Sequence record: PP620640
Source: Escherichia phage fKMPT1
Length of the DNA stretch: 64,000 nt
Strand: one strand, 5' to 3'
The translations under genes and the position numbers were made by a program. Numbering within the stretch: the stretch's first letter is position 1; each line of letters begins with the position of its first letter. Below are positions 33,362 through 62,057 of this stretch, in pieces. The notes beneath the pieces are model-generated. The model had not been told where the DNA came from and made no database searches. It saw only the letters and a list, made by a program, of their open reading frames with translations.

Positions 33362-33784
33362 ATGCAGAAAATGTTTGTTCACCCAGACATAGCTGACTTT
33401 GTTAGAGCTTTGCAGAAGTTGGAAGAACTTGACATTGCTGCTCAACGGGAATATGCTCACCATCACAGGAGAATGGTTGATATACAACATGAAATAGAGT
33501 TGTCTGAAAACTATGAAGATGACTTAAAATGCTCTGTATTTGAGCATATGAAAGATGTTGCTACAGCGAGACGTAAAGCTAAAGACACAGTTGCTTTACT
33601 AGATTCTCTTAAAAAGAGATTGCAAAGTGGTACAGACCTGTGTAATCTAGCGTCACTGATTAACGATGTTGAAACTTCTTGGGATAGACATTACTATCCA
33701 CGTTCTGAAAAGACACTTGACTTTTCTTCATCCGAAAACTTAAAATGTTCTAGAAAGAAACTTAACCAACTGAGAGAGAAATAA
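33362..33784 (+). CDS. Hypothetical early protein
   Basis: 140-aa ORF, first gene after AT-rich divergent control region. Confidence 0.4.
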   Translation: MQKMFVHPDIADFVRALQKLEELDIAAQREYAHHHRRMVDIQHEIELSENYEDDLKCSVFEHMKDVATARRKAKDTVALLDSLKKRLQSGTDLCNLASLINDVETSWDRHYYPRSEKTLDFSSSENLKCSRKKLNQLREK

Positions 33785-33785
33785 T

Positions 33786-34598
33786 ATGAACACTACTGTA
33801 GACCAGATGCTTAAAGAAAAAGGTGTTGACGAAGCATTCTTAATCAATGCCGTAGAAAGCATGGCTATGATTCTTCGTGGAAACAACTATACAGAACAGT
33901 TTATGCCTGCAAGCTATAACTTACCTAAAGACAAGTCTGATAACGGTGCTTTTGCAGAACAGGTTAATATGATGCTGTGTGACAAAAAACTTGCTTTAGC
34001 ATCTATCGTTGTAGGTGTTGATGCTCTTGCAGAGTTCATTTTTTATGAGATGCAGAAAAATGACTATATTGCCATGACCTCTGAAGAAAAAGACTCGCTA
34101 CTACTCTTAGATAATAATGAGTTAGTTGACCTGTTAATTTCGTCAACGAGTGCTGTTATGGCTGCTCTTGAGAAGCGCATGGAAGAGAAGCTGTCACGAT
34201 ATGAAAAGCTTGATTGGGGTGTAGAAGAGTTAAACCCACGAATCAAAGAGATTATCCAGCAAACTAAAGAGTCTTTAGAAGAGGCTGTGAAAGATGATTC
34301 CGTAGCTGATGTAGAACCACTACAGGTGAAGGTTGCTCTGATGATTCCAGCTATCTCTACAATGATGAATATCGTTGCACTAATCCAACTTTCACAGATG
34401 TTGGGTGTAACCATTGAGTTCGTTGAGGAGATGACTGGTGGTGTCAGCATGCAAGCAATCAATGATGTTTTGGTAAACATTGGCGCTTCAATCATTGAAG
34501 AGAAGCTGCGTATTAACTTTGGCGATGATTTTGTGAAGCAAGTATCAGCTATGGCTGAAAAAGAGTATTCACAGATTAATACCGACCAACTGCACTAA
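33786..34598 (+). CDS. Hypothetical acidic protein
   Basis: 270-aa ORF, coupled to upstream gene, followed by terminator. Confidence 0.4.
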   Translation: MNTTVDQMLKEKGVDEAFLINAVESMAMILRGNNYTEQFMPASYNLPKDKSDNGAFAEQVNMMLCDKKLALASIVVGVDALAEFIFYEMQKNDYIAMTSEEKDSLLLLDNNELVDLLISSTSAVMAALEKRMEEKLSRYEKLDWGVEELNPRIKEIIQQTKESLEEAVKDDSVADVEPLQVKVALMIPAISTMMNIVALIQLSQMLGVTIEFVEEMTGGVSMQAINDVLVNIGASIIEEKLRINFGDDFVKQVSAMAEKEYSQINTDQLH

Positions 34599-40518: not shown

Positions 40519-40782
40519 TTGAGAGAGAATAAAATGTTTAACAAAAGTAAAGCTGTGAGTCATGTAGCAAAAGTTGACAGCAAGATTGAAGAACTTGAGC
40601 GCATTCTTGCAAATGTCAGAGAGTCAATAATTAAAGAAGTTGAAGCTGTTGAATCTCAAATGCAGCACCTAATGCTTAAACGTCAAGAGCTACGTGAGCA
40701 TCTGGAATATATTGAAACACGAGAGCTAAAGGTTAACAGATATTTTAAGGAGTCCGAATGTTTAACTCAAGAGAATCAGTAA
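40519..40782 (+). CDS. Hypothetical coiled-coil protein
   Basis: 87-aa ORF. Confidence 0.35.
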   Translation: MRENKMFNKSKAVSHVAKVDSKIEELERILANVRESIIKEVEAVESQMQHLMLKRQELREHLEYIETRELKVNRYFKESECLTQENQ

Positions 40783-50492: not shown

Positions 50493-50759
50493 ATGGGAAT
50501 TTTAGGTAATATGAAAGCTGGCTTCTTGAAGGCACTGGCAAAAGCAGCAGCAATCATTTCTATGACTGGGAAGCAGGTTGGTGTAGATGCTTCAGCAATT
50601 GCACAGGTTCTTGCAAGCCAAATTGAACAGCAGCCTTACATCCACGTTGGACGTGGTAAAGGTGGTAAGAAGCAGGCTCATCGTAAATCTGGTGCAGCAG
50701 CTATTAAACGAGCAGCTAAAAAAGCTCGTAACCGTAAACGTAACAAGAAGGTTAAATAA
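50493..50759 (+). CDS. Small protein with highly basic C-terminus
   Basis: 88 aa; C-terminal KKQAHRKSGAAAIKRAAKKARNRKRNKKVK. Confidence 0.4.
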   Translation: MGILGNMKAGFLKALAKAAAIISMTGKQVGVDASAIAQVLASQIEQQPYIHVGRGKGGKKQAHRKSGAAAIKRAAKKARNRKRNKKVK

Positions 50760-50761
50760 TC

Positions 50762-51073
50762 ATGAGCAAAGTTTATAACACTCGCAAGATTCAGATTTTA
50801 GCACTTTGTCAGTTCATGCTTGACAAACATAATGCTCACTATTGTGGGACTGGCTTCTTGTGTTTTGACCGAAAGTATATACCTTTCAAAGAGGCTGTAA
50901 AGCTCTACAATGAGCATGATGAAAGTGACAAAGAGTTAAAACAACTTAAGCTGACTTATGACAAGAAGCATAAGAAGATTGTTTGCCTGAACAATTATAT
51001 CAAGCCAACTGAAGTACTGAAGTCAACGCTTGGTGAAGGTGAATTTGAAAAAGTCTTGAAGGCTATCCAATAA
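50762..51073 (+). CDS. Hypothetical protein
   Basis: 103-aa ORF followed by terminator. Confidence 0.35.
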   Translation: MSKVYNTRKIQILALCQFMLDKHNAHYCGTGFLCFDRKYIPFKEAVKLYNEHDESDKELKQLKLTYDKKHKKIVCLNNYIKPTEVLKSTLGEGEFEKVLKAIQ

Positions 51074-51086
51074 GCTTGTATGATTA

Positions 51087-51111
51087 GGGAACTGTAAAAG
51101 GTTCCCTTTTT
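51087..51111 (+). terminator. Rho-independent terminator
   Basis: gggaac-tgtaaaa-ggttccc hairpin followed by TTTTT. Confidence 0.65.
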
Positions 51112-51125
51112 ATTTTGGAGAAAAT

Positions 51126-51659
51126 ATGTATCTGGCAAACCTTAAGCGCTCTGCTGCAATGTCTGTCCTTCGTCTTGACTTTGATGAGCGTCAAGAATTT
51201 ATAGACTCCCACAAGTATGACCCTTCAAATTCTAATCACATGGTTCTTTGGAATCGTGGAAGCTTCCGTGATAAATCCCTCTTCAGATACTACCCACATT
51301 ACACCATTGATAACCTGTATGAGTACTGCGTTGTCAAAAACACTATTACAGTACTTAATAAACTATGCAAATACTCTGACAAGAGAGCCTTCACATTAGG
51401 TCACCACACACCTGTTACAAAAGGTGGCGAGCATCACTGTACAAACTGGTTTATCCAAACTAAAGCTGATAATCAGAAGCAAGGGGATAACCTACTAAGT
51501 ACTCCTAAGATGACCTATGAAGAGCAAGAGAAATATATCAAAAATAATATGCCAGATGTGCTTGACAACAACTATACAGATTTGGCAATATCTCTCCTGT
51601 TGAAGTTCGAGACAGTTTATAGGGCAACTTACAATGGCAGTAACAAACGTAACTTTTGA
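51126..51659 (+). CDS. HNH endonuclease-like protein (candidate)
   Basis: 177 aa; LGHHTPVTKGGEHHCTNWFIQTKADNQKQGD fits the HNH pattern HH..P..KGG....N.......N.K.GD. Confidence 0.45.
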   Translation: MYLANLKRSAAMSVLRLDFDERQEFIDSHKYDPSNSNHMVLWNRGSFRDKSLFRYYPHYTIDNLYEYCVVKNTITVLNKLCKYSDKRAFTLGHHTPVTKGGEHHCTNWFIQTKADNQKQGDNLLSTPKMTYEEQEKYIKNNMPDVLDNNYTDLAISLLLKFETVYRATYNGSNKRNF

Positions 51660-51674
51660 TTGAGAGAGAAAACT

Positions 51675-52130
51675 ATGATTTTTTGCAGCTTCCAAAAAAG
51701 AATTATTGAGATTCTATACAATAAGTTTGGGACAGATAACACATTTGACTCAAATGAAGCTATTGAAGCCCTACAAGAAGGAAGTGATTACATCAAAAAA
51801 CAGCCAATAGCAAACATCAGGTACTACTTGACTCAGATGAGAAAGTGGGGTGTGCTCATCGTGGTAGGACAGATTAAGCAACAAGGGAGGATGCTCATCA
51901 ACCAATTAAATAGGGGTTTTATTGAGAAGCACATTCAGCTAGAATATTTACTTAAAGAGCCACGAAACCAACGTGAAGAACAGCAAAAAGACTTAAGTGA
52001 TGGTGTAGGTGTGTCTCCAGACATAAAATTCTTTATTGGTGAGTTGATGTTTGATACACTCCAAGACGCTGTCGAACACTGCAAAAAGTATATTATCAAA
52101 GTAAAACGTGCAAAAATTATTTGGGAGTAA
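51675..52130 (+). CDS. Paralog family member A1 (unknown function)
   Basis: Start at ATG 51675 (MIFCSFQ); shares N-terminal MIFCxxQK..IEILY..FGT.NTFDSNEAI and C-terminal AVEHCKK.(I/L)IKVK.AK(I/V)IWE with 52552..53016. Confidence 0.5.
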   Translation: MIFCSFQKRIIEILYNKFGTDNTFDSNEAIEALQEGSDYIKKQPIANIRYYLTQMRKWGVLIVVGQIKQQGRMLINQLNRGFIEKHIQLEYLLKEPRNQREEQQKDLSDGVGVSPDIKFFIGELMFDTLQDAVEHCKKYIIKVKRAKIIWE

Positions 52131-52134
52131 TAAC

Positions 52135-52530
52135 ATGTTTGAGCTTCTGAAGGTTCTGTATATAACTTTTGGCTATGATAAAACATTTTCTGGCTCACAG
52201 CTAACTAAGGTTTTTAATAAATATCTACCACATGCTTCAATCAGGGATAAAGCTAATTGGTCTCACAGATTACGTAAAAGTGGGTATATTAGCGTTGTTG
52301 GAGCGACAGGCTTTAATAATGAGTATCTTATGAGAATCAATGAAAGCAAAGCTAAAAAGGTGCTTTTAAATTGTAATGACCATCAACAAAAGTATGAAGA
52401 GGCTAGTGTAGGTGAAGTAGGGTACTTCATAGGTGACATACACTTTACCAGTATGGAGGCAGCAGTTGAGCATTGTAAGAAAACGGTTATCCAAACAAAA
52501 AGAAAGCGTATTGTTTGGGAAGAAGTTTAA
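52135..52530 (+). CDS. Paralog family member B1 (unknown function)
   Basis: Start at ATG 52135 (MFELLKVLY) with GGGAG 7 nt upstream inside previous gene; C-terminal AAVEHCKKTVIQTKRKRIVWE. Confidence 0.5.
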   Translation: MFELLKVLYITFGYDKTFSGSQLTKVFNKYLPHASIRDKANWSHRLRKSGYISVVGATGFNNEYLMRINESKAKKVLLNCNDHQQKYEEASVGEVGYFIGDIHFTSMEAAVEHCKKTVIQTKRKRIVWEEV

Positions 52531-52551
52531 ACATTTGATTAGGAATACACT

Positions 52552-53016
52552 ATGATTTTTTGCAATTTACAGAAGCACGTAATAGAGATTTTATACAAAA
52601 CCTTCGGGACAGAAAACACTTTTGACTCTAATGAAGCAATTGACGCATTAAGAGAGAATAGTCTTTTTATACGAGGCCAGTCAATCAGTAATACCCGTGG
52701 GTATCTAACAATGTTAAGACAGTCTGGTGTACTGCTGACTGTAGGGCAGGTAAAAAGCAAAGGTAGGCTAAGTATTAATCAATTAAATCGAGCCTTTATG
52801 GAGAAGCACATACAACTGTCAAGGATGCTAGATAATACGCGTGAAGAGTTGGGGAGTTCACAAAAAGCAAGTTCATCTGATGTTAAAGATGTGGATGTAC
52901 AACCTGACGTAAGATACTTTATCGCAGATGTTATGTTTAAAACACTTGATGAAGCTGTTGAGCACTGCAAAAAGCATCTTATTAAAGTTAAACATGCAAA
53001 AGTTATTTGGGAGTGA
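52552..53016 (+). CDS. Paralog family member A2 (unknown function)
   Basis: 154 aa; full-length alignable with A1. Confidence 0.5.
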   Translation: MIFCNLQKHVIEILYKTFGTENTFDSNEAIDALRENSLFIRGQSISNTRGYLTMLRQSGVLLTVGQVKSKGRLSINQLNRAFMEKHIQLSRMLDNTREELGSSQKASSSDVKDVDVQPDVRYFIADVMFKTLDEAVEHCKKHLIKVKHAKVIWE

Positions 53017-53020
53017 TGTT

Positions 53021-53401
53021 ATGATTGAACTGTTAAAAGTCCTATATAATAAGTTTGGTTATGATGAAACTTTTACTTGTTCACAGATACGTAGTATCCA
53101 TGATAAGGAATTTCCAAATGTATCCAAGACAAACAAGTCAACTCGGTTCAATCGTCTTCGCCAGAGGGGTTACATTAAAATAGTTGGATACAAGAATAAC
53201 TCTTTTGAGTATGTAATGCAGATTAACAGAGAAGTATCAAGTAAAATACTTGAAGAGCCAACAGCCGAAGAACAAAAGATACAAGATGGTGAAGTTCGCT
53301 TCTTTGTGGAGAAGGAAAGTTTTGGGTCAATAGACGAAGCTATCGAATATTGCAAAAAGAACATTATCCAGATAAAGCGTAGAAAGGTTATTTGGGAATA
53401 A
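53021..53401 (+). CDS. Paralog family member B2 (unknown function)
   Basis: Start at ATG 53021 (MIELLKVLY) with GGGAG 7 nt upstream; C-terminal EAIEYCKKNIIQIKRRKVIWE. Confidence 0.5.
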   Translation: MIELLKVLYNKFGYDETFTCSQIRSIHDKEFPNVSKTNKSTRFNRLRQRGYIKIVGYKNNSFEYVMQINREVSSKILEEPTAEEQKIQDGEVRFFVEKESFGSIDEAIEYCKKNIIQIKRRKVIWE

Positions 53402-53420
53402 AGAGAAAGAGAGAGAAACT

Positions 53421-54302
53421 ATGAAAACATCTATCCGCGTTACAGTTCATTCACCAACTAAAGGAACTTATGAAGAAGAGTTTAACATCATCCAATTCCC
53501 TTCTGGTGAGATTGGTGGACACTTTTCACCAGAGTTTGTTGACTTCACTACTTATGCAGCATCATCTATCAACAATGTGATTATGATTGTAAAAGGTTAT
53601 GATAAAGATACATTGTTTGCTGTGGCACTTGCTAAAGAGGCGGTGGACAACTTAGTACCTCATAAGTTTGCTATGAAGACCATTATCTTTTACTATTTGC
53701 CAAATGCACGTTATGACCGTCACATGTTTAAAGGTGATGCAGCAGCTTTGAAAGTGTTTGCACAACAGGTTAATGCAATGGGTTTTGATGCAGTCTGTGC
53801 AGTTGACCCTCACAGCTATGTACCAGATAACCTGTTTAACTGCTTCCAAAGTATCCCTCAAAATGAAGTTGCAGTTCACTATGCAAATGACCCTCTGGTT
53901 GATTACTTAGTAGCCCCAGATGCAGGTGCTTCTAAGAAGATTGCAGAGACTGCTAAAGAGGTGGATAAACCATATATCACAATGTCTAAGGTGCGTAACC
54001 TTAAGACTGGTGAAATTACTGGTATGCGAATCCTTGATGATGTTGATTTGACAGATAAAACCGTCATGATTCTGGATGATATTTGTGATGGAGGACGAAC
54101 CTTCATAGAAGCAGCTAAACATCTTCGTGAAGCAGGTGCAAAACGTGTGGAACTCTATGTAACTCATGGTATTTTCTCTAAAGGGGTTGAAAACTTGCTT
54201 GACAATGGTATTGACCATATCTACACTACAAACTCTTTAGGGGAAGCTAAAGACCGTGGCTTAACACATTATGCTCAAGTTACTGTAGCAAACCTTGATT
54301 AA
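53421..54302 (+). CDS. Ribose-phosphate pyrophosphokinase (Prs) family protein; Prs or ADPR-PP synthetase-like
   Basis: 293 aa; collinear with Prs motifs: IFYYLPNARYDRH (cf. VIPYFGYARQDR), VAPDAGASKK (cf. VSPDIGGVVRA), PRPP-binding loop VMILDDICDGGRTF...AGAKRVELYVTHGIFS. Confidence 0.7.
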   Translation: MKTSIRVTVHSPTKGTYEEEFNIIQFPSGEIGGHFSPEFVDFTTYAASSINNVIMIVKGYDKDTLFAVALAKEAVDNLVPHKFAMKTIIFYYLPNARYDRHMFKGDAAALKVFAQQVNAMGFDAVCAVDPHSYVPDNLFNCFQSIPQNEVAVHYANDPLVDYLVAPDAGASKKIAETAKEVDKPYITMSKVRNLKTGEITGMRILDDVDLTDKTVMILDDICDGGRTFIEAAKHLREAGAKRVELYVTHGIFSKGVENLLDNGIDHIYTTNSLGEAKDRGLTHYAQVTVANLD

Positions 54303-54311
54303 AACTTTATA

Positions 54312-54332
54312 GGGGCTTACAAGCCCCATTTT
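54312..54332 (+). terminator. Weak terminator-like hairpin
   Basis: ggggc-ttacaa-gcccc followed by ATTTT. Confidence 0.4.
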
Positions 54333-54347
54333 GAGAGAGATTAAAAG

Positions 54348-56129
54348 ATGACTAAATCACTTTATGCAGTACCAGCAGGTTTAAACGCAGACGCTTACAA
54401 ATCTGGTCACATCTACCAGTATCCTAGTGCAATAGAGTACTTGATGTTCAACCTGACACCACGTAGTGATAAATGGTTTAACAGCCCCTTAGCAATTGAC
54501 GGTGTAGTGGCTTTTGGTATTCAACGTTTTGTTAAAGATTACCTGATAGACCACTGGAACGCCACCTTCTTCGAACGTGACAAAAAAGAAGCAATTGACG
54601 AAATCTTAGAAGTCATGAACGGTGTTCTGGGTAAAGATGCTATTGGTCGAGAACATTGGGAAGCACTCCACGACTTAGGTTATCTACCAGTTGAAGTATA
54701 CGCTGTAGAAGAAGGCACAGTTGTCCCTATGCGTGTACCAATGATTGTCTTCCAGAACACTGTTTCAGGTTTCCATTGGGTAGCGGGGTATCTGGAAGAT
54801 GCTTTCTCTGCTGAGATTTGGAAGGCTTGTACCATTGCAACTATTGCATTGCACTACAAACGTATCTGTAAGAAGTGGTCTGACCTTACTTGTGACAATG
54901 ACTTGCATTTACCTTATCAGTGCCATGACTTTGCTATGCGTGGTATGTCTGGCTTTACTGATGACGCATTTAATGCTGTAGGCCACTTAACCAGCTTTAA
55001 AGGGACTGATAGCTTCCCTGCTGTATACACGGCTAAACGCATCTATGGACAGCCCTACCCAATCTCTGATATTGGTAGTTCTGTACCAGCCACTGAACAC
55101 TCTGTAATGTGTGCAAACATTGCTTGGGAAGGTGGTAATGAGTTGATTGAAGAAGAAAGACGCTTTAAAGGTGAGTTACAAACCTTCCGTCGTTTCTTAA
55201 CAGAAACTTACCCAACTGGTATTGCAAGTGTTGTTTCAGACACTTATAATTTCTGGAAAACTGTATCAGAAATCTTACCAGCACTTCGCAAAGAGATTAT
55301 GGAACGTGACGGAAAACTGGTAATTCGTCCTGACTCTGGCGACCCTGTACATATTGTCACAGGTTATAAAGCAATCCACTTAGAGTGCGCTAAAAAAGCT
55401 TATTACGAACACCTAAGCAAGCTGGAAGCCAGCGACACAAAGTTGAATGCTGTTCTGAACATGAATCTTGAAGACATTCACTATATTATGGCTGGGTGGT
55501 TACGTACAGAAGGCTATGAAATGGTGGTTGACAGAGAAGACTTTGAAGTAGCTGATACAGTGCTTCTGAAAGATGCCTACATCAACGGCTCTGCAAACGT
55601 TGTAACACGTCCTGTAGCAGAGATTGATGGAGCTATTAAGACCCTGTATAACATCTTTGGAGGGACTATCAACGCTAAAGGTTTTAAAGTACTGGATGAG
55701 CACATTGGACTTATTTATGGTGACTCTATCACGTTGGAACGTGCAAACGAAATCCTTAAGCGTTTGTATGAAATGGGTTTTGCAAGCTCTAACGTAGTGT
55801 TTGGTGTAGGTTCTTACACTTACCAGTACATGACTCGTGACACCTTTGCATTTGCTGTTAAAGCAACTCTGGCAAGCATTGGTGGCAAAGAGATTATGCT
55901 TGCAAAAGACCCTAAAACAGATAGTGGTGTTAAGAAGTCTGCTTTTGGTGGTGTAGCACCTATGTGGGATGGTGATAAGCTGAAAGCTGTAGATGGCTAT
56001 GGGTTCCAGAGCTTTGCAGATGTGCTTGAACATCCAGCTTGTGCTTTACGTTTAGTCTTTAGTGACTCTGAGCAGTTTGGTTACACAAATCTTGGTGATA
56101 TTCGAAATAATATTGACAAGCAGCTTTAA
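54348..56129 (+). CDS. Nicotinamide phosphoribosyltransferase family protein (NadV/NAMPT-like or Namat-like)
   Basis: 593 aa; N-terminal LNADAYKSGHIYQYPS matches NAMPT LATDSYKVTHYKQYP; immediately downstream of Prs-like gene. Confidence 0.7.
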   Translation: MTKSLYAVPAGLNADAYKSGHIYQYPSAIEYLMFNLTPRSDKWFNSPLAIDGVVAFGIQRFVKDYLIDHWNATFFERDKKEAIDEILEVMNGVLGKDAIGREHWEALHDLGYLPVEVYAVEEGTVVPMRVPMIVFQNTVSGFHWVAGYLEDAFSAEIWKACTIATIALHYKRICKKWSDLTCDNDLHLPYQCHDFAMRGMSGFTDDAFNAVGHLTSFKGTDSFPAVYTAKRIYGQPYPISDIGSSVPATEHSVMCANIAWEGGNELIEEERRFKGELQTFRRFLTETYPTGIASVVSDTYNFWKTVSEILPALRKEIMERDGKLVIRPDSGDPVHIVTGYKAIHLECAKKAYYEHLSKLEASDTKLNAVLNMNLEDIHYIMAGWLRTEGYEMVVDREDFEVADTVLLKDAYINGSANVVTRPVAEIDGAIKTLYNIFGGTINAKGFKVLDEHIGLIYGDSITLERANEILKRLYEMGFASSNVVFGVGSYTYQYMTRDTFAFAVKATLASIGGKEIMLAKDPKTDSGVKKSAFGGVAPMWDGDKLKAVDGYGFQSFADVLEHPACALRLVFSDSEQFGYTNLGDIRNNIDKQL

Positions 56130-56142
56130 AAGTATATGATAA

Positions 56143-56165
56143 GAGGCTCCTACGGGAGCCTTTTT
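56143..56165 (+). terminator. Rho-independent terminator
   Basis: ggctcc-tacg-ggagcc hairpin followed by TTTTT. Confidence 0.7.
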
Positions 56166-56182
56166 AATTTCTGGAGAAGATT

Positions 56183-56518
56183 ATGAAAATCAAAGAAATG
56201 AATATCAATATTGTCTTAGAAGAACGTTGGGAGAACATCAAGAAGCCTGAAAATGGTCATAAGTTCCTCAACAAAATCTTAGTAGCAGCTAAAGAAGAAC
56301 TGACTGGCAAGGTTGCAGCAGCAATTACAATAAAGGTGTGTGTAAAAGGTCTTCCAGACAATCACCAATTTGCACTTGACGAGTTTAAAGAAAGCTTCTA
56401 CAATCCAAACAAACAGATGCTTGAAAGTAATTTTGCAGTATCTACAAGTATCGTCCATGACAGAAGCTTTATCCTTTACAAGAATATGAGAGGTGAGTCA
56501 TGCAAGCATATTGGATAG
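56183..56518 (+). CDS. Hypothetical protein
   Basis: 111-aa ORF. Confidence 0.35.
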   Translation: MKIKEMNINIVLEERWENIKKPENGHKFLNKILVAAKEELTGKVAAAITIKVCVKGLPDNHQFALDEFKESFYNPNKQMLESNFAVSTSIVHDRSFILYKNMRGESCKHIG

Positions 56519-56676
56519 AAATTTTACTGTCACTTGGTAGTGTAGCAGTATTTGTTTACCTTCTTTGCAAGTACTATGCAGAACACAAAAAATGTGACTT
56601 CTGTAACGGAGAGGGTTATACAAGAGCAGGTTGTTGCCCTATGTGTGGTGGTTCTGGTAAAATGTTTAATAAGTAA
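56500..56676 (+). CDS. Small membrane-anchored protein with two CxxCxGxG (DnaJ-type) zinc-finger motifs
   Basis: 58-aa ORF missed by track length cut-off; MQAYWIEILLSLGSVAVFVYLLCKYYAEHKKCDFCNGEGYTRAGCCPMCGGSGKMFNK; RBS GAGAGGTGAG. Confidence 0.45.
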   Translation: MQAYWIEILLSLGSVAVFVYLLCKYYAEHKKCDFCNGEGYTRAGCCPMCGGSGKMFNK

Positions 56677-56704
56677 TTTAACAGTAAACTAAGAGGAAAG
56701 TATT

Positions 56705-59071
56705 ATGCGCATGGTAAACGACCACGCAGAAGTGATTAAGAGTTCAACTTCTTTAGAGACGTCGCAAGCACAGATTACAATGACACCTGAAATGTTCAGC
56801 CTTTTGAGTTCTGGTGTATATACCTTTAAAGAAAGGGCAGTGATTCGTGAACTGTCATGTAACGCAGTAGATGCTCAGAAAGAAGCTGGAAAAGAGAATA
56901 TCCCGTTCCATGTGCATTTACCTACTCGTTTTGAGCCTTACTTTGAAGTTCGTGATTTTGGAACTGGATTAACTCATGATAAAGTTATGAGTTTGTACCT
57001 AAACTATGGGGCTTCTACGAAGAATGACTCTAATGACTACATTGGTGCAATGGGTATCGGCTCAAAATCACCATTTGCAATTGCTCAGTCATTCACAGTG
57101 TCTAGCTATGTTGACGGTGTTGTTAATAAGTACTCTGTTTATCTTGAGAATGGTATCCCTCAAGTAACTAAACTGACCACTAACCCAACAAAAGAACCTA
57201 ATGGTTTAGCTGTACGTGTGGCAGTTGCTGACCACCGTATTTCAAAGTTCTTTGAAGAGGCTGGTAATGTATACTCATACTTTGCTGTAAAACCAGAAAG
57301 TAACATCGAGTATGACGATGTACTAGCAGATATGAATGTCATTGCCCGTGAAGAAGGTGTCTATGATGCCATGATTCATAAGCAAAGCTGGCGTTCTAGT
57401 GGTAACAGGACAGAGTTTAATGTGGTGATGGGTAATATCGCCTATCCAGTTAACATGGAAGCATTACTTGGAGATGATTTCTTCAAAGTCTTGCCAGAAT
57501 TTTTCCGTAGGAGCGTAGACCTTGTAAACATCTACATGCCTATTGGTTCAGTCGCTATTGCAGCTTCTCGTGAAGCATTGCAGATGAATGATACGACAAA
57601 AAATGTTATCATTGAGGCTACTAAAAAGATAACTGAAGCAATTACAAAGGATGTTATCAAGAAAGTTAATAGCCAACCTACACTCATGGATGCTGCACAG
57701 GCTTATGCTGAGTTACGTTTGAACTCACGAGAGATGTTCAATGCTGTGTGTCCAAAGCTAGAGTGGGGTGGTGTTAAGCTTGATTCTCTGGAAGAAGAAT
57801 TACTAAACATTCGTCGTGGAATTATCTACGCAGAAGACGGCTCAGTCATTTACGAACGTGACGGCAAAGGCAATATTAAGGTTGATAGGAACGGGAACAA
57901 TATCCCTAAAGTAGATTATCTTTATGACCCAGTTGCTTACGTCAAGTTCAACTCTTTAGAGAGTAAGATTCGTGCAACATCGCTTTCCTACACTCAAGAG
58001 GCAAGTATGTTCAATATCTTTGGCGCAATGCGTAAAAGCCAAATTGAACAGTTTTTGTTTGTTATAAATGACCGTCGCAATAAAAATGGTACTGAGAAGA
58101 CTGTAGGACGCAATCAAATTTTGCGTGGTGCATGTCGAGACTATGCCAATGAGTCAAGTCTGTTTCACAGATACAATGGTATTGTCTTTGTATTCTCTAC
58201 AGAGAAAGAGCTAGACGACTTAATCAATTTGCACAAACTTGATAAAAGCTTGTTAAAGATTGTGAAGATGTCTGATAAGGAACACCATTATCAGCGTAAA
58301 GAAGCTGTAAGAGGTGTTGTAAAACTTTGGAAAGCTGTTCCAGCAGAAGGTGTAGCTTCCTATAAAGAGGTTTCAGAGGACTTTGATACAATTGAAGAAC
58401 CTCAGCTTTACATTAAGGCAGTCGGCGACACAGTTGACGGTGAATGTTTTTGCTCATCTCCAGAAGATGTAGCTAAGTCAGTTGCAAATGTCATTGGGAA
58501 GACAGTCTATGTTTTCCGAAAAGCAAATTGGAAAAAGATACCAGAAGACTGGATTGAAGTAGATGAGAAGCTCTTGAACGACAGCTTAACTGATGTTCAC
58601 TGGATTAACCATAATAGGTATATGACACGCATCTATATGAATGGTGTCCTTGACCTCACAAGCAGTTGGATTATTGCCAGAAACTTTACGTTCAATAACA
58701 GGAAGATTTCTCGTGGCTATTGTTATTCACGGGATACAAACAAAACTATCTTCCTAGAAGGCAATGAGGATGCTGTTGAGGCAATGTTTGGTAAAATCCA
58801 ATACGTTGCTGCACCGTTTGCATACACTTACACTATTAGTAGACTGCAAACTTTGAAAGAATGCCTTGATAACGATACAAAGCTGTACAAGAAAATCAAG
58901 AAAGCTGGTGACCGTATGGTCATTAAGGTGACAAACTACCTTTCAAAAAGGAAACAAGAAAACTTCTTGCTTTCTCATTTAGATTGGGATAAAGTGTCAC
59001 CCATCGAAGTGAGTAAGTTCTTAGGCTTTGATGTGAAGTGTGTTCCAGAAGGGACTACAATTTACGATTAA
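56705..59071 (+). CDS. rIIA: rIIA-like protein with GHKL (HATPase_c) ATPase domain
   Basis: 788 aa; Bergerat-fold boxes: N-box ELSCNAVDA, G1 DFGTGL, G2 GAMGIGSKSPFA; size as T4 rIIA. Confidence 0.6.
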   Translation: MRMVNDHAEVIKSSTSLETSQAQITMTPEMFSLLSSGVYTFKERAVIRELSCNAVDAQKEAGKENIPFHVHLPTRFEPYFEVRDFGTGLTHDKVMSLYLNYGASTKNDSNDYIGAMGIGSKSPFAIAQSFTVSSYVDGVVNKYSVYLENGIPQVTKLTTNPTKEPNGLAVRVAVADHRISKFFEEAGNVYSYFAVKPESNIEYDDVLADMNVIAREEGVYDAMIHKQSWRSSGNRTEFNVVMGNIAYPVNMEALLGDDFFKVLPEFFRRSVDLVNIYMPIGSVAIAASREALQMNDTTKNVIIEATKKITEAITKDVIKKVNSQPTLMDAAQAYAELRLNSREMFNAVCPKLEWGGVKLDSLEEELLNIRRGIIYAEDGSVIYERDGKGNIKVDRNGNNIPKVDYLYDPVAYVKFNSLESKIRATSLSYTQEASMFNIFGAMRKSQIEQFLFVINDRRNKNGTEKTVGRNQILRGACRDYANESSLFHRYNGIVFVFSTEKELDDLINLHKLDKSLLKIVKMSDKEHHYQRKEAVRGVVKLWKAVPAEGVASYKEVSEDFDTIEEPQLYIKAVGDTVDGECFCSSPEDVAKSVANVIGKTVYVFRKANWKKIPEDWIEVDEKLLNDSLTDVHWINHNRYMTRIYMNGVLDLTSSWIIARNFTFNNRKISRGYCYSRDTNKTIFLEGNEDAVEAMFGKIQYVAAPFAYTYTISRLQTLKECLDNDTKLYKKIKKAGDRMVIKVTNYLSKRKQENFLLSHLDWDKVSPIEVSKFLGFDVKCVPEGTTIYD

Positions 59072-60909: not shown

Positions 60910-61582
60910 TGAAGTCCTGTGCCACGCTTATGACTTGCATCCTCATGAGTTAGGTCTTGATTCCTGTGTATGGACTCCAGAACAGTGCAGGGATTTTGAA
61001 GACACTGCAAGAGAAGTTGTATGTTCACTTGAAGAGTTCCACACATCAGAACCAATTGTGAACGTTGTGGATAAAGAAACTGGACAAGCTATAGGTGTAA
61101 GTCGTGATAGTTTAGTCATAGTCAATGAAGACCTTGTAGAAAAAGGTAACCTCATCTTAGCAGATATTGATGGTGTTCTTACAAATTTTAATCACGAAGA
61201 TTGCTCAACGGAATTGACTGACGGGTCATTTTCACAGTACACTAATCTTCTTGACTCTGTAAGAGCAAAACCAACATATATTTTCAGTATCATTGATGCA
61301 ATTGCTAATCATGCTGCCATTGGCCTCTTAACAGCAAGAGGTGAAACTCAGAGAATACCTACTGAGATGTTCTTGAGGCACAATATAGAGCATGATTACA
61401 TGCTTTTTATGCGTGGTTTTGGAACTAACTCTCTAAGTGCAGAAAGTTTAAAAGTGAGGATGATTCAGTCTTGCATTCTTCCTTACTTTAATATAGTATG
61501 TTTTATAGAAGATACAGAGAAGAATGTTCAGAAGGTTAACAGAATCCTTCCACACATCAAAACCATGCTAGTTAAACATTGA
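60887..61582 (+). CDS. HAD-like phosphatase domain protein (candidate)
   Basis: 231 aa; ILADIDGVLTNF resembles HAD motif I DxDG(T/V)L. Confidence 0.35.
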   Translation: MKKLRKSDEVLCHAYDLHPHELGLDSCVWTPEQCRDFEDTAREVVCSLEEFHTSEPIVNVVDKETGQAIGVSRDSLVIVNEDLVEKGNLILADIDGVLTNFNHEDCSTELTDGSFSQYTNLLDSVRAKPTYIFSIIDAIANHAAIGLLTARGETQRIPTEMFLRHNIEHDYMLFMRGFGTNSLSAESLKVRMIQSCILPYFNIVCFIEDTEKNVQKVNRILPHIKTMLVKH

Positions 61583-61592
61583 GAGAAAACTT

Positions 61593-62057
61593 ATGAACAA
61601 TATCATTACGGTAGCACTGGACGTTACGGAAAACAAATCTGCAGTAGTTCGTAACATTATCAAGAGCAACTTTGAGGGTAAAATCTTCCGTGCTGTCAAT
61701 GTAAAAGCAGACGGGAACATTCGGGAGTATCGTGCTCTTCTGAATGTTAAGAAACATGTCAAAGGTGCTGGTTCAACGACTGCACACAAAGAAAACCTGA
61801 TGACTATCTATGATATGGGTATGGCTTCAGAGTTAGGTGCTGAAGGTATCGTTAAAGAAGGTGCTCCGTATCGCTCTTTCAATCTGGAAACTGCTCTTAT
61901 GCTTTCCTTTACAAGTGGTTCTAAAACAACTACTTATCTCTTTACTGATGCTGCAACGGTATCTGCTATTAAGGATAGCACTGTCAAAGCTGGGGTAGCT
62001 GCTGCTGCAAAAGCTTCTTCGATGGCTGCAAATGTCCTTGCTAAAGTCCTCAGTTAA
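61593..62057 (+). CDS. Hypothetical protein
   Basis: 154-aa ORF followed by terminator. Confidence 0.35.
   Translation: MNNIITVALDVTENKSAVVRNIIKSNFEGKIFRAVNVKADGNIREYRALLNVKKHVKGAGSTTAHKENLMTIYDMGMASELGAEGIVKEGAPYRSFNLETALMLSFTSGSKTTTYLFTDAATVSAIKDSTVKAGVAAAAKASSMAANVLAKVLS

What the first reader, a model, noticed from the sequence alone, without database searches (positions are those of the whole stretch)
51675..53401. Tandem A-B-A-B array of four paralogous ~130-155-aa genes of unknown function
Four consecutive, translationally coupled genes form two alternating subfamilies: A1 and A2 (MIFCxxQK..IEILY..FGT.NTFDSNEAI...) and B1 and B2 (M(F/I)ELLKVLY..FGYD.TF..SQ...). All four share a C-terminal signature (E/A)A(V/I)E(H/Y)CKK.(I/V)I..K(R/H).K(I/V)(I/V)WE. 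Even the A-to-B junction DNA is conserved (atttgggagtaataacATG versus atttgggagtgatgttATG, each with GGGAG 7 nt before the B start). This looks like a duplicated two-gene cassette that has diverged at the protein level, the pattern expected for rapidly evolving host-interaction or anti-defense genes. No known family was recognised.
Basis: seen in the sequence. Interest (0 to 1): 0.7.

Follow-up and report, generated by a model that had tools for sequence, protein, structure and literature searches.

The report
Paired winged-helix gene cassettes beside NARP1
Four small related genes in a Felix O1-like Salmonella phage encode winged-helix (DNA-binding-type) proteins with a shared, otherwise unknown tail module; they form a rare add-on cassette inserted directly in front of the phage's NAD-restoring counter-defence operon, and their function is still untested.

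Summary
The window is Salmonella phage fBSPA4 (a Felix O1-like phage). The genes are A1 (51675-52130), B1 (52135-52530), A2 (52552-53016) and B2 (53021-53401). They are significant paralogs: A1/A2 are 60% identical, B1/B2 42% and A/B about 30%, with BLASTP E from 1e-16 to 1e-37.

The family (phrog_29478, function unknown) is tiny and confined to Ounavirinae. It occurs in 15 of 50,697 phage records and in 4 clusters among 1.84 billion protein representatives.

At this site it always occurs as unlike pairs: A1-B1, A2'-A3 or A1-B1-A2-B2. The pairs sit exactly at the start codon of adps/namat (NARP1, a proven anti-defence operon), between direct repeats of the ribosome-binding region.

"Rapidly evolving" is not supported. 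Ortholog dN/dS is 0.03-0.24, like the neighbouring enzymes, and the duplication is old.

My best reading is paired, probably heteromeric, nucleic-acid-binding accessory proteins. An anti-defence role is plausible from context only.

The parts
51675..52130 (+). A1, 151 aa. Position-1 paralog: winged helix (res 1-93), disordered linker (94-116), beta-hairpin plus helix tail (117-151).
52135..52530 (+). B1, 131 aa. Position-2 paralog with the same architecture and shorter loops. Its start lies 4 nt after the A1 stop.
52552..53016 (+). A2, 154 aa. Position-1 paralog, orthologous (81%) to the first gene of the A2'-A3 pairs in Pr103Blw-type phages.
53021..53401 (+). B2, 126 aa. Position-2 paralog, 42% identical to B1. 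The GenBank start at 52994 is probably 27 nt too far upstream.
   Evidence: ortholog annotations of 126 aa
52123..52127 (+). GGGAG Shine-Dalgarno for B1, embedded in the last two codons (TGG GAG) of A1.
   Evidence: sequence; the GAG versus GAA codon choice tracks the presence of a B start 4 nt downstream
53009..53013 (+). GGGAG Shine-Dalgarno for B2, embedded in the last two codons of A2.
51662..51678 (+). Left boundary repeat GAGAGAGAAAACTATGA (ribosome-binding region plus start codon). In array-less relatives this same sequence directly precedes prs/adps.
53409..53424 (+). Right boundary repeat GAGAGAGAAACTATGA in front of prs/adps. It is a direct repeat of the left boundary.
51086..51107 (+). 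Terminator-like hairpin upstream of the transcription unit that contains the array (context).
   Evidence: a terminator is annotated at the equivalent place in phage Mordin
53421..56129 (+). Context: prs-like (adps) and nadV-like (namat) genes, the NARP1 NAD+ reconstitution operon, immediately downstream and probably co-transcribed. A terminator lies at 56141-56164.
   Evidence: NARP1 was shown experimentally in the Felixounavirus Bas63

Best explanation
**Shown**
- The four genes are old paralogs of one very small, Ounavirinae-restricted family.
- Each protein has three parts: a basic winged-helix domain of the MarR/PadR/SarA type, a flexible acidic or polar linker, and a family-specific ~35-residue beta-beta-alpha tail ending in ...K(I/V)(I/V)WE.
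- The array is an accessory cassette. It sits exactly at the start codon of the NARP1 (adps-namat) operon, is bracketed by direct repeats of the ribosome-binding region, has no promoter space of its own, and is under purifying selection.

**Inferred**
- The functional unit is a pair, one position-1 protein (A1 or A2) with one position-2 protein (B1, B2 or A3). The pair is made in roughly 1:1 amounts by translational coupling and is held together through the conserved C-terminal module.
- Each pair would then be a heteromer with two different recognition helices that binds nucleic acid, most likely asymmetric DNA sites.
- The window would carry two such pairs with different specificities.

**Speculative**
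- The pairs are expressed together with NARP1 and act as accessory regulators or blockers of host or competitor DNA targets during takeover. They are not part of the core phage programme.
For: **Fold**
- AF2 gives the H-E-H-H-E-E winged-helix topology at pLDDT about 90 in both A1 and B1.
- The N-terminal domains have pI 9-10.

**Pair rule**
- Every occurrence at this site is a pair of unlike paralogs: A1-B1, A2'-A3 or A1-B1-A2-B2.

**Coupling**
- The A-to-B spacer is 4 nt, with GGGAG inside the W-E codons.
- The last Glu codon is GAG only when a B start follows, and GAA otherwise.

**Shared tail, divergent heads**
- The C module is 37-74% identical across all subfamilies, including the distant solo homolog.
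- The winged helix is only 16-27% identical between A, B and the solo member. The recognition helix differs between A1, A2, B1 and B2.

**Selection**
- Ortholog dN/dS is 0.03-0.24.

**Cassette nature**
- Array-less relatives join the same upstream gene directly to prs.
- Boundary repeats flank the insert.
- The NARP1 genes of the window are closest (96.6%) to an array-less phage.
- No convincing terminator lies between 51107 and 56141.
Against: - No DNA binding, dimerisation or phenotype has been measured.
- The C module is predicted only at pLDDT about 70, and the heteromer could not be modelled.
- No operator-like repeat was found in or next to the cassette.
- A distant homolog (P0015) occurs alone, so pairing is not obligatory for the family.
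- No profile of a known regulator family matches.
Confidence: 0.4

Rival explanations
1. Anti-defence inhibitors acting by protein binding. Each protein or pair would bind and neutralise a host immune protein, possibly one linked to NAD+ depletion. The divergent winged helix would be the target-specific surface and the conserved tail a common scaffold. Two pairs would mean two targets.
For: - The cassette is an accessory insertion in about 6% of relatives, placed exactly at the NARP1 anti-defence operon and co-transcribed with it.
- There is a precedent: an extra gene inserted in a NARP1 locus (RyDEP) proved to be an anti-Thoeris enzyme.
- The cassette's distribution is mosaic relative to its flanks.
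- Its structural neighbours include protein-binding winged helices.
Against: - The support is guilt by association only.
- dN/dS is ordinary and shows no arms-race signature.
- The fold and charge favour nucleic-acid binding.
- No similarity to any known system turned up, and no literature covers the family.
Confidence: 0.3
2. Four independent homodimeric winged-helix regulators. They would be ordinary small phage transcription factors, PadR-s2 or MarR-like. They would be neighbours only because they arose by tandem duplication, and A and B would not interact.
For: - A solo homolog exists.
- Tandem paralogs are common in phage genomes (general knowledge).
Against: - At this site the family is never seen as a single gene or as a pair of like paralogs.
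- Tight coupling and the codon-level maintenance of the embedded Shine-Dalgarno sequence suggest stoichiometric co-production.
- The tail is conserved across all paralogs, beyond what independent dimers would need.
Confidence: 0.2
3. Remnant or passenger of a selfish element. The proteins would be DNA-binding modules derived from homing endonucleases or their associates, and the beta-beta-alpha tail would be a degenerate HNH (beta-beta-alpha-Me) motif.
For: - The region is rich in HNH-type genes: a DUF7390 gene annotated as HNH, phrog_3500 with weak HNH hits, and an HNH homing-endonuclease gene inserted in prs-nadV of BPSELC-1.
- The predicted tail is a beta-hairpin plus helix.
- A 30-nt DNA similarity links the tail to the phrog_3500 gene.
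Against: - The invariant tail residues (F, F, A, E, C, I, K, W, E) do not include the catalytic His or the Asn/His metal ligands of HNH.
- Profile comparison with phrog_3500 gives probability 0.7%.
- No nuclease family matches.
- Purifying selection acts on all four genes.
Confidence: 0.05

Closest known systems
Small winged-helix transcription regulators (PadR subfamily 2, MarR/SarA family, Fur DNA-binding domain)
   Different: No sequence-profile membership was found. There is an extra disordered linker and a conserved beta-beta-alpha tail not seen in those families. The genes are encoded as unlike pairs in a strictly lytic phage, with no promoter or operator of their own.
phrog_29478 (PHROGs v4, function unknown)
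   Same: All four proteins, and the solo homolog P0015, match this profile.
   Different: PHROGs gives no function, no fold and no description of the paired or alternating organisation.
Accessory genes embedded in NARP1 loci, e.g. RyDEP (gp78 of mycobacteriophage DyoEdafos)
   Same: Both are variable insertions at a NARP1 operon, revealed by comparison with a close relative that lacks them.
   Different: RyDEP is a RyR-domain glycosidase that degrades cADPR signals. The proteins here are winged-helix proteins with no enzyme-like domain and no sequence or fold relation to it.
Viral winged-helix DNA binders such as STIV F93 and TubR of phage/plasmid partition systems
   Different: Those are homodimers encoded by single genes. 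They lack the C-terminal module and have a different genomic context.
T4 MotA-type two-domain phage transcription factors
   Same: The resemblance is conceptual only: a DNA-binding domain tethered by a linker to a small second domain that could contact host machinery (my own knowledge, not tested).
   Different: The folds and domain order differ. MotA is a core gene, whereas this family is accessory and absent from about 94% of relatives.

Membership tests
Winged-helix (wHTH) fold superfamily | alpha1-beta1-alpha2-alpha3-beta2-wing-beta3 topology | tested here: met
Winged-helix (wHTH) fold superfamily | Nucleic-acid binding through alpha3 and the wing | not testable with these tools
   Only indirect support: N-domain pI of 9-10 and Arg/Lys/Asn/Ser-rich alpha3 helices.
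MarR / PadR / Fur sequence families (Pfam, NCBIfam) | Profile-HMM match above the curated cut-off | tested here: not met
   No Pfam or NCBIfam wHTH model reaches even E = 0.1. PDB sequence-profile search gives only a chance-level SH2 fragment at E = 0.07.
phrog_29478 | Full-length match to the PHROG profile | tested here: met
   E = 2e-63 (A1), 3e-68 (A2), 1.5e-14 (B1), 3.8e-15 (B2).
HNH / beta-beta-alpha-Me nucleases | Catalytic His at the end of beta1 and Asn/His metal ligands in the helix | tested here: not met
   The invariant tail residues are F, F, A, E, C, I, K, W, E, with no conserved His or Asn at those positions. hhalign against the HNH-like neighbour gives probability 0.7%.
Anti-CRISPR-associated (Aca)-type autoregulators | Own promoter with inverted-repeat operator upstream of an anti-defence operon | tested here: not met
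   The intergenic spacers are 15, 4, 21, 4 and 19 nt, which leaves no room for a promoter or operator. No local inverted repeat was found.
Known defence-system proteins (PADLOC-DB) | HMM match | tested here: not met
   No hit at E <= 1.
Fast-evolving arms-race accessory genes | Elevated dN/dS relative to neighbouring core genes | tested here: not met
   Ortholog dN/dS is 0.03-0.24, against 0.07-0.18 for prs and nadV.
Heteromeric two-gene module | Physical A:B interaction | not testable with these tools
Only genomic evidence exists: the pair rule and translational coupling.

The most novel reading that the evidence does not exclude
The paired winged-helix cassette would be a new kind of counter-defence module that works together with NARP1. 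Heteromeric A:B complexes might silence or occupy host defence loci or nucleic-acid-sensing immune proteins, for instance NAD+-depleting systems that NARP1 alone cannot overcome. The conserved beta-beta-alpha tail would be a previously undescribed interaction domain. The two pairs in this phage would broaden the range of hosts it can infect.
Probability: 0.15. Interest if true: 0.7.

Novelty: new variant of a known kind. Interest (0 to 1): 0.42.

Why it matters
- Felix O1-like phages are widely used for Salmonella and E. coli typing and biocontrol. Accessory genes next to their proven NAD+-reconstitution operon are natural candidates for host-range determinants.
- The finding gives a clean, testable unit. 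Natural phage variants carry zero, one or two cassettes and are otherwise more than 93% identical in the neighbouring NARP1 genes.
- It defines a small conserved tail domain with no detectable relative.
- It shows how promoter-less gene cassettes move between lytic phages by recombination at repeated ribosome-binding regions.
- If the proteins are only ordinary DNA binders, the value is modest: a fold assignment for phrog_29478 and a corrected gene start.

Tried and rejected
**Profile and sequence searches that found nothing**
- Pfam, NCBIfam and PADLOC scans gave nothing meaningful.
- The PDB sequence-profile search gave only a 40-residue SH2-like fragment at E = 0.07, which I judged to be chance.
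- A full-profile HMMER search of 1.84 billion representatives found no members outside the phage family. Hits P0016-P0019 are repeat proteins at E from 1e-5 to 1e-3.
- The IMG/VR scan found no relative.
- The solo homolog P0015 is a singleton.

**Structure attempts that failed**
- I tried an A1-linker-B1 fusion with paired orthologs to model the heteromer.

**Ideas rejected**
- The tail as a degenerate HNH motif related to the neighbouring phrog_3500 gene: hhalign probability 0.7%, and the catalytic residues are absent.
- A local operator: the repeat search showed only the paralogy itself and short, chance-level matches.
- Recent duplication as the cause of the junction similarity: rejected because paralog dS is saturated.

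**Literature**
- Searches on fBSPA4, Felixounavirus accessory genes, an accessory-gene screen and a phage gene-essentiality study gave nothing on this family.

Full report
**Identity of the window and of the genes**

The queried stretch is 100% identical, with the same coordinates, to Salmonella phage fBSPA4 (OR711204.1). This is an 87-kb Felix O1-like phage. The four ORFs are:
- A1 at 51675-52130
- B1 at 52135-52530
- A2 at 52552-53016
- B2 at 53021-53401

The GenBank record calls all four hypothetical. It starts B2 at 52994, but alignment with B1 and the 126-aa ortholog annotations favour 53021.

| Pair | Identity | BLASTP E |
|---|---|---|
| A1/A2 | 60% | not run |
| B1/B2 | 42% | 3e-37 |
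| A1/B1 | 30% | 2e-18 |
| A2/B2 | 28% | 6e-16 |

All four match one PHROG profile, phrog_29478 (unknown function), with E from 1e-14 to 1e-68. The C-terminal signature is real. The invariant residues are F120, F126, A132, E134, C136, K137, K138, I141, K144, W150 and E151. It persists across 18 family members.

**What the proteins are**

Pfam, NCBIfam and PADLOC give no hit, but the fold is not novel.
- AlphaFold2 models of A1 and B1 both show an N-terminal H-E-H-H-E-E winged helix at pLDDT about 90.
- A disordered 12-26-residue acidic or polar linker follows.
- The proteins end in a beta-hairpin plus helix of about 35 residues, at pLDDT about 70.
- Foldseek against viral models finds only the family itself and anonymous winged-helix proteins.
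- The N-terminal domains are basic, with pI 9-10.

The conserved part of the family is the tail, not the winged helix.
- The tail is 37-74% identical among all subfamilies and the distant solo homolog.
- The winged helix is 16-27% identical between the A, B and solo types.
- The recognition helix differs between A1, A2, B1 and B2. It is 88% identical between A1 and A3.

The tail has no detectable relative.
- The best PDB sequence-profile hit is an SH2 fragment at E = 0.07, which I take as chance.
- A possible link to the HNH-like neighbour gene fails, with hhalign probability 0.7%.
- HNH catalytic residues are absent.

**How rare it is, and how it is organised elsewhere**

- tblastn finds the family in 15 of 50,697 phage records, which represent 13 distinct phages. 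All are Ounavirinae.
- An exhaustive profile search of 1.84 billion protein representatives finds only four real clusters.
- The word-indexed 5.8-billion-protein search finds 8 A-type and 5 B-type clusters.
- IMG/VR yields none.
- About 250 Felix O1-like records carry the flanking genes. Only 10 of them have the four-gene array.

Four states exist at this one site, immediately upstream of prs:

| State | Examples |
|---|---|
| No cassette | BPS17W1, SP116 |
| One A1-B1 pair | Four metagenomic phages |
| An A2'-A3 pair (A3 is a third A-like lineage) | Pr103Blw, Mordin and others |
| A1-B1-A2-B2 | The window plus nine records |

A very distant homolog, P0015, is a solo gene elsewhere in a divergent relative.

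**History**

A bootstrapped NJ tree gives ((A1,A2) 97%, A3) and (B1,B2) 100%. This fits duplication of an ancestral A-B unit, with A3 as an older A-like partner. The duplication is old: synonymous divergence between paralogs is saturated, and nucleotide identity is 47-65%. The conserved A-to-B junction therefore does not reflect recent DNA duplication.

**Cassette boundaries**

- In array-less BPS17W1 the upstream gene runs ...ttgattgagagataaaactATGaaaaca, straight into prs. In the window the same sequence runs into A1, and a second copy (gagagagaaactATGa) precedes prs.
- Mordin shows a direct repeat of more than 30 nt on both sides of its pair. The single-pair phages show 15-25-nt repeats.
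- The motif is a recurrent ribosome-binding region of this phage. It occurs 4 times in the window, against 0.11 expected.
- The cassettes have no promoter space. The spacers are 15, 4, 21, 4 and 19 nt.
- The cassettes lie between a terminator-like hairpin at 51086-51107 and the one after nadV at 56141-56164. A terminator is also annotated at the first position in Mordin.
- The window's prs-nadV is most similar (96.6%) to an array-less phage, and only 93-95.6% to the other array-bearing phages.
- Within array-bearing phages, dS of the array (0.01-0.12) is lower than that of prs and nadV (0.13-0.35) and of the upstream genes.

Together these points indicate gain, loss or exchange by recombination at the repeated initiation regions.

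**Translational coupling**

Each A stop is followed 4 nt later by the B start, and GGGAG is formed by the terminal Trp-Glu codons. Across all loci the terminal Glu is GAG in every gene followed by a B start: the A1 and A2 lineages, from seven distinct sequences. It is GAA in every other family member, namely B1, B2, A2', A3 and the solo gene. A2' genes belong to the A2 clade but use GAA, so the codon choice tracks the downstream gene and not the lineage.

**Selection**

Ortholog dN/dS is 0.03-0.24 for the four genes, against 0.07-0.18 for prs and nadV. The only values above 1 come from B1 comparisons with dS of about 0.01 and are uninformative. The genes are functional and conserved, not rapidly evolving.

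**Context**

The downstream pair is a Prs-family gene (PF14572) and a Nampt-family gene (PF04095). This is the architecture of NARP1 (Adps plus Namat), shown in phage Bas63 to rebuild NAD+ from ADPR and nicotinamide and to overcome SIR2-HerA and other NAD+-depleting defences. Bas63 is a Felixounavirus. Orthology of the window's genes to Bas63 gp79-80 is inferred from genus, synteny and domain content and was not checked residue by residue. In a mycobacteriophage, an extra gene inserted in a NARP1 locus proved to be an anti-Thoeris enzyme. So accessory genes at this locus have a precedent for counter-defence roles. This is association, not evidence of function.

**Mechanism: what is shown and what is inferred**

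- **Shown:** winged-helix plus tail architecture, the pair rule, coupling, purifying selection, and accessory cassette status next to NARP1.
- **Inferred:** the position-1 and position-2 proteins form a heteromer through the conserved tail and present two different recognition helices to nucleic acid. The window would encode two such complexes.
- **Speculative:** they act on host or competitor DNA as accessory regulators during takeover, or alternatively bind host immune proteins.

I put about 0.4 on the heteromeric nucleic-acid-binding reading, about 0.3 on a protein-targeting anti-defence role, about 0.2 on independent homodimeric regulators, and about 0.05 on a selfish-element remnant. Non-functional ORFs are excluded by the selection data.

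**Verdict**

It is wrong on rapid evolution, and untested on anti-defence. The proteins are a new, very narrow variant of winged-helix proteins with an undescribed tail module and an unusual paired, promoter-less cassette organisation at an anti-defence locus. Interest is moderate.

Noticed in passing
window 53421-56129: The genes annotated prs and nadV have the domain pair and synteny of the NARP1 NAD+ reconstitution operon (Adps + Namat), characterised in the Felixounavirus Bas63. The GenBank names (ribose-phosphate pyrophosphokinase, nicotinamide phosphoribosyltransferase) are probably functionally misleading.
   Followed up: partly
window 51630-51660 versus L002 2009-2287 and L003 2009-2287: The other array-bearing phages, and many array-less ones, carry a 92-aa gene (phrog_4726, unknown) between the phrog_3500 gene and A1 or prs. 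The window and BPS17W1 lack it. The difference is bounded by a 'caatggc' microhomology and changes the C-terminus of the phrog_3500 protein (171 versus 177 aa).
   Followed up: partly
window 52994-53020: The GenBank start of B2 (52994, overlapping A2 by 23 nt) is probably wrong. The homologous start is ATG 53021, with GGGAG 7 nt upstream. Similarly, RPN213 annotates a truncated A2 (L019 4333-4638) although the full 154-aa ORF from 4174 is intact.
   Followed up: yes
window 51126-51659: The conserved upstream gene (phrog_3500) contains an HNH-like stretch (GHHTPVTKGGEHHCTNW...N) and weak matches to HNH endonuclease PHROGs (E about 1e-3). The window's copy is only about 86% identical to every relative examined, and dS is 0.6-0.9, far above the neighbouring genes.
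   Followed up: partly
window 50493-51073: The two small genes upstream (phrog_4425, and a DUF7390 gene annotated 'HNH endonuclease') exist as sharply different alleles among close relatives (about 53% versus 90-95% aa identity). The whole nrdG-to-prs interval is therefore a mosaic accessory region.
   Followed up: partly
window 33771-33788, 40520-40536, 51661-51677, 61580-61595: A TGAGAGA(G/A)AA...ATG translation-initiation motif recurs 4 times, against 0.11 expected. It is the sequence at which the cassettes are bounded and may serve as a recombination substrate for promoter-less gene cassettes.
   Followed up: partly
hit H93, Salmonella phage BPSELC-1 (MN227145.1) 54118-57295: An HNH homing endonuclease gene is annotated inside the prs-nadV interval of this relative. 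It is another insertion at the NARP1 locus.
   Followed up: no
L007 8001-11245: The only distant homolog (P0015, 125 aa, same tail but a different winged helix) lies in a divergent Ounavirinae-like contig about 6 kb downstream of its NARP1 genes. Its neighbours include a WYL_2-domain protein and a Macro-domain protein, which suggests an ADP-ribose-related neighbourhood.
   Followed up: no
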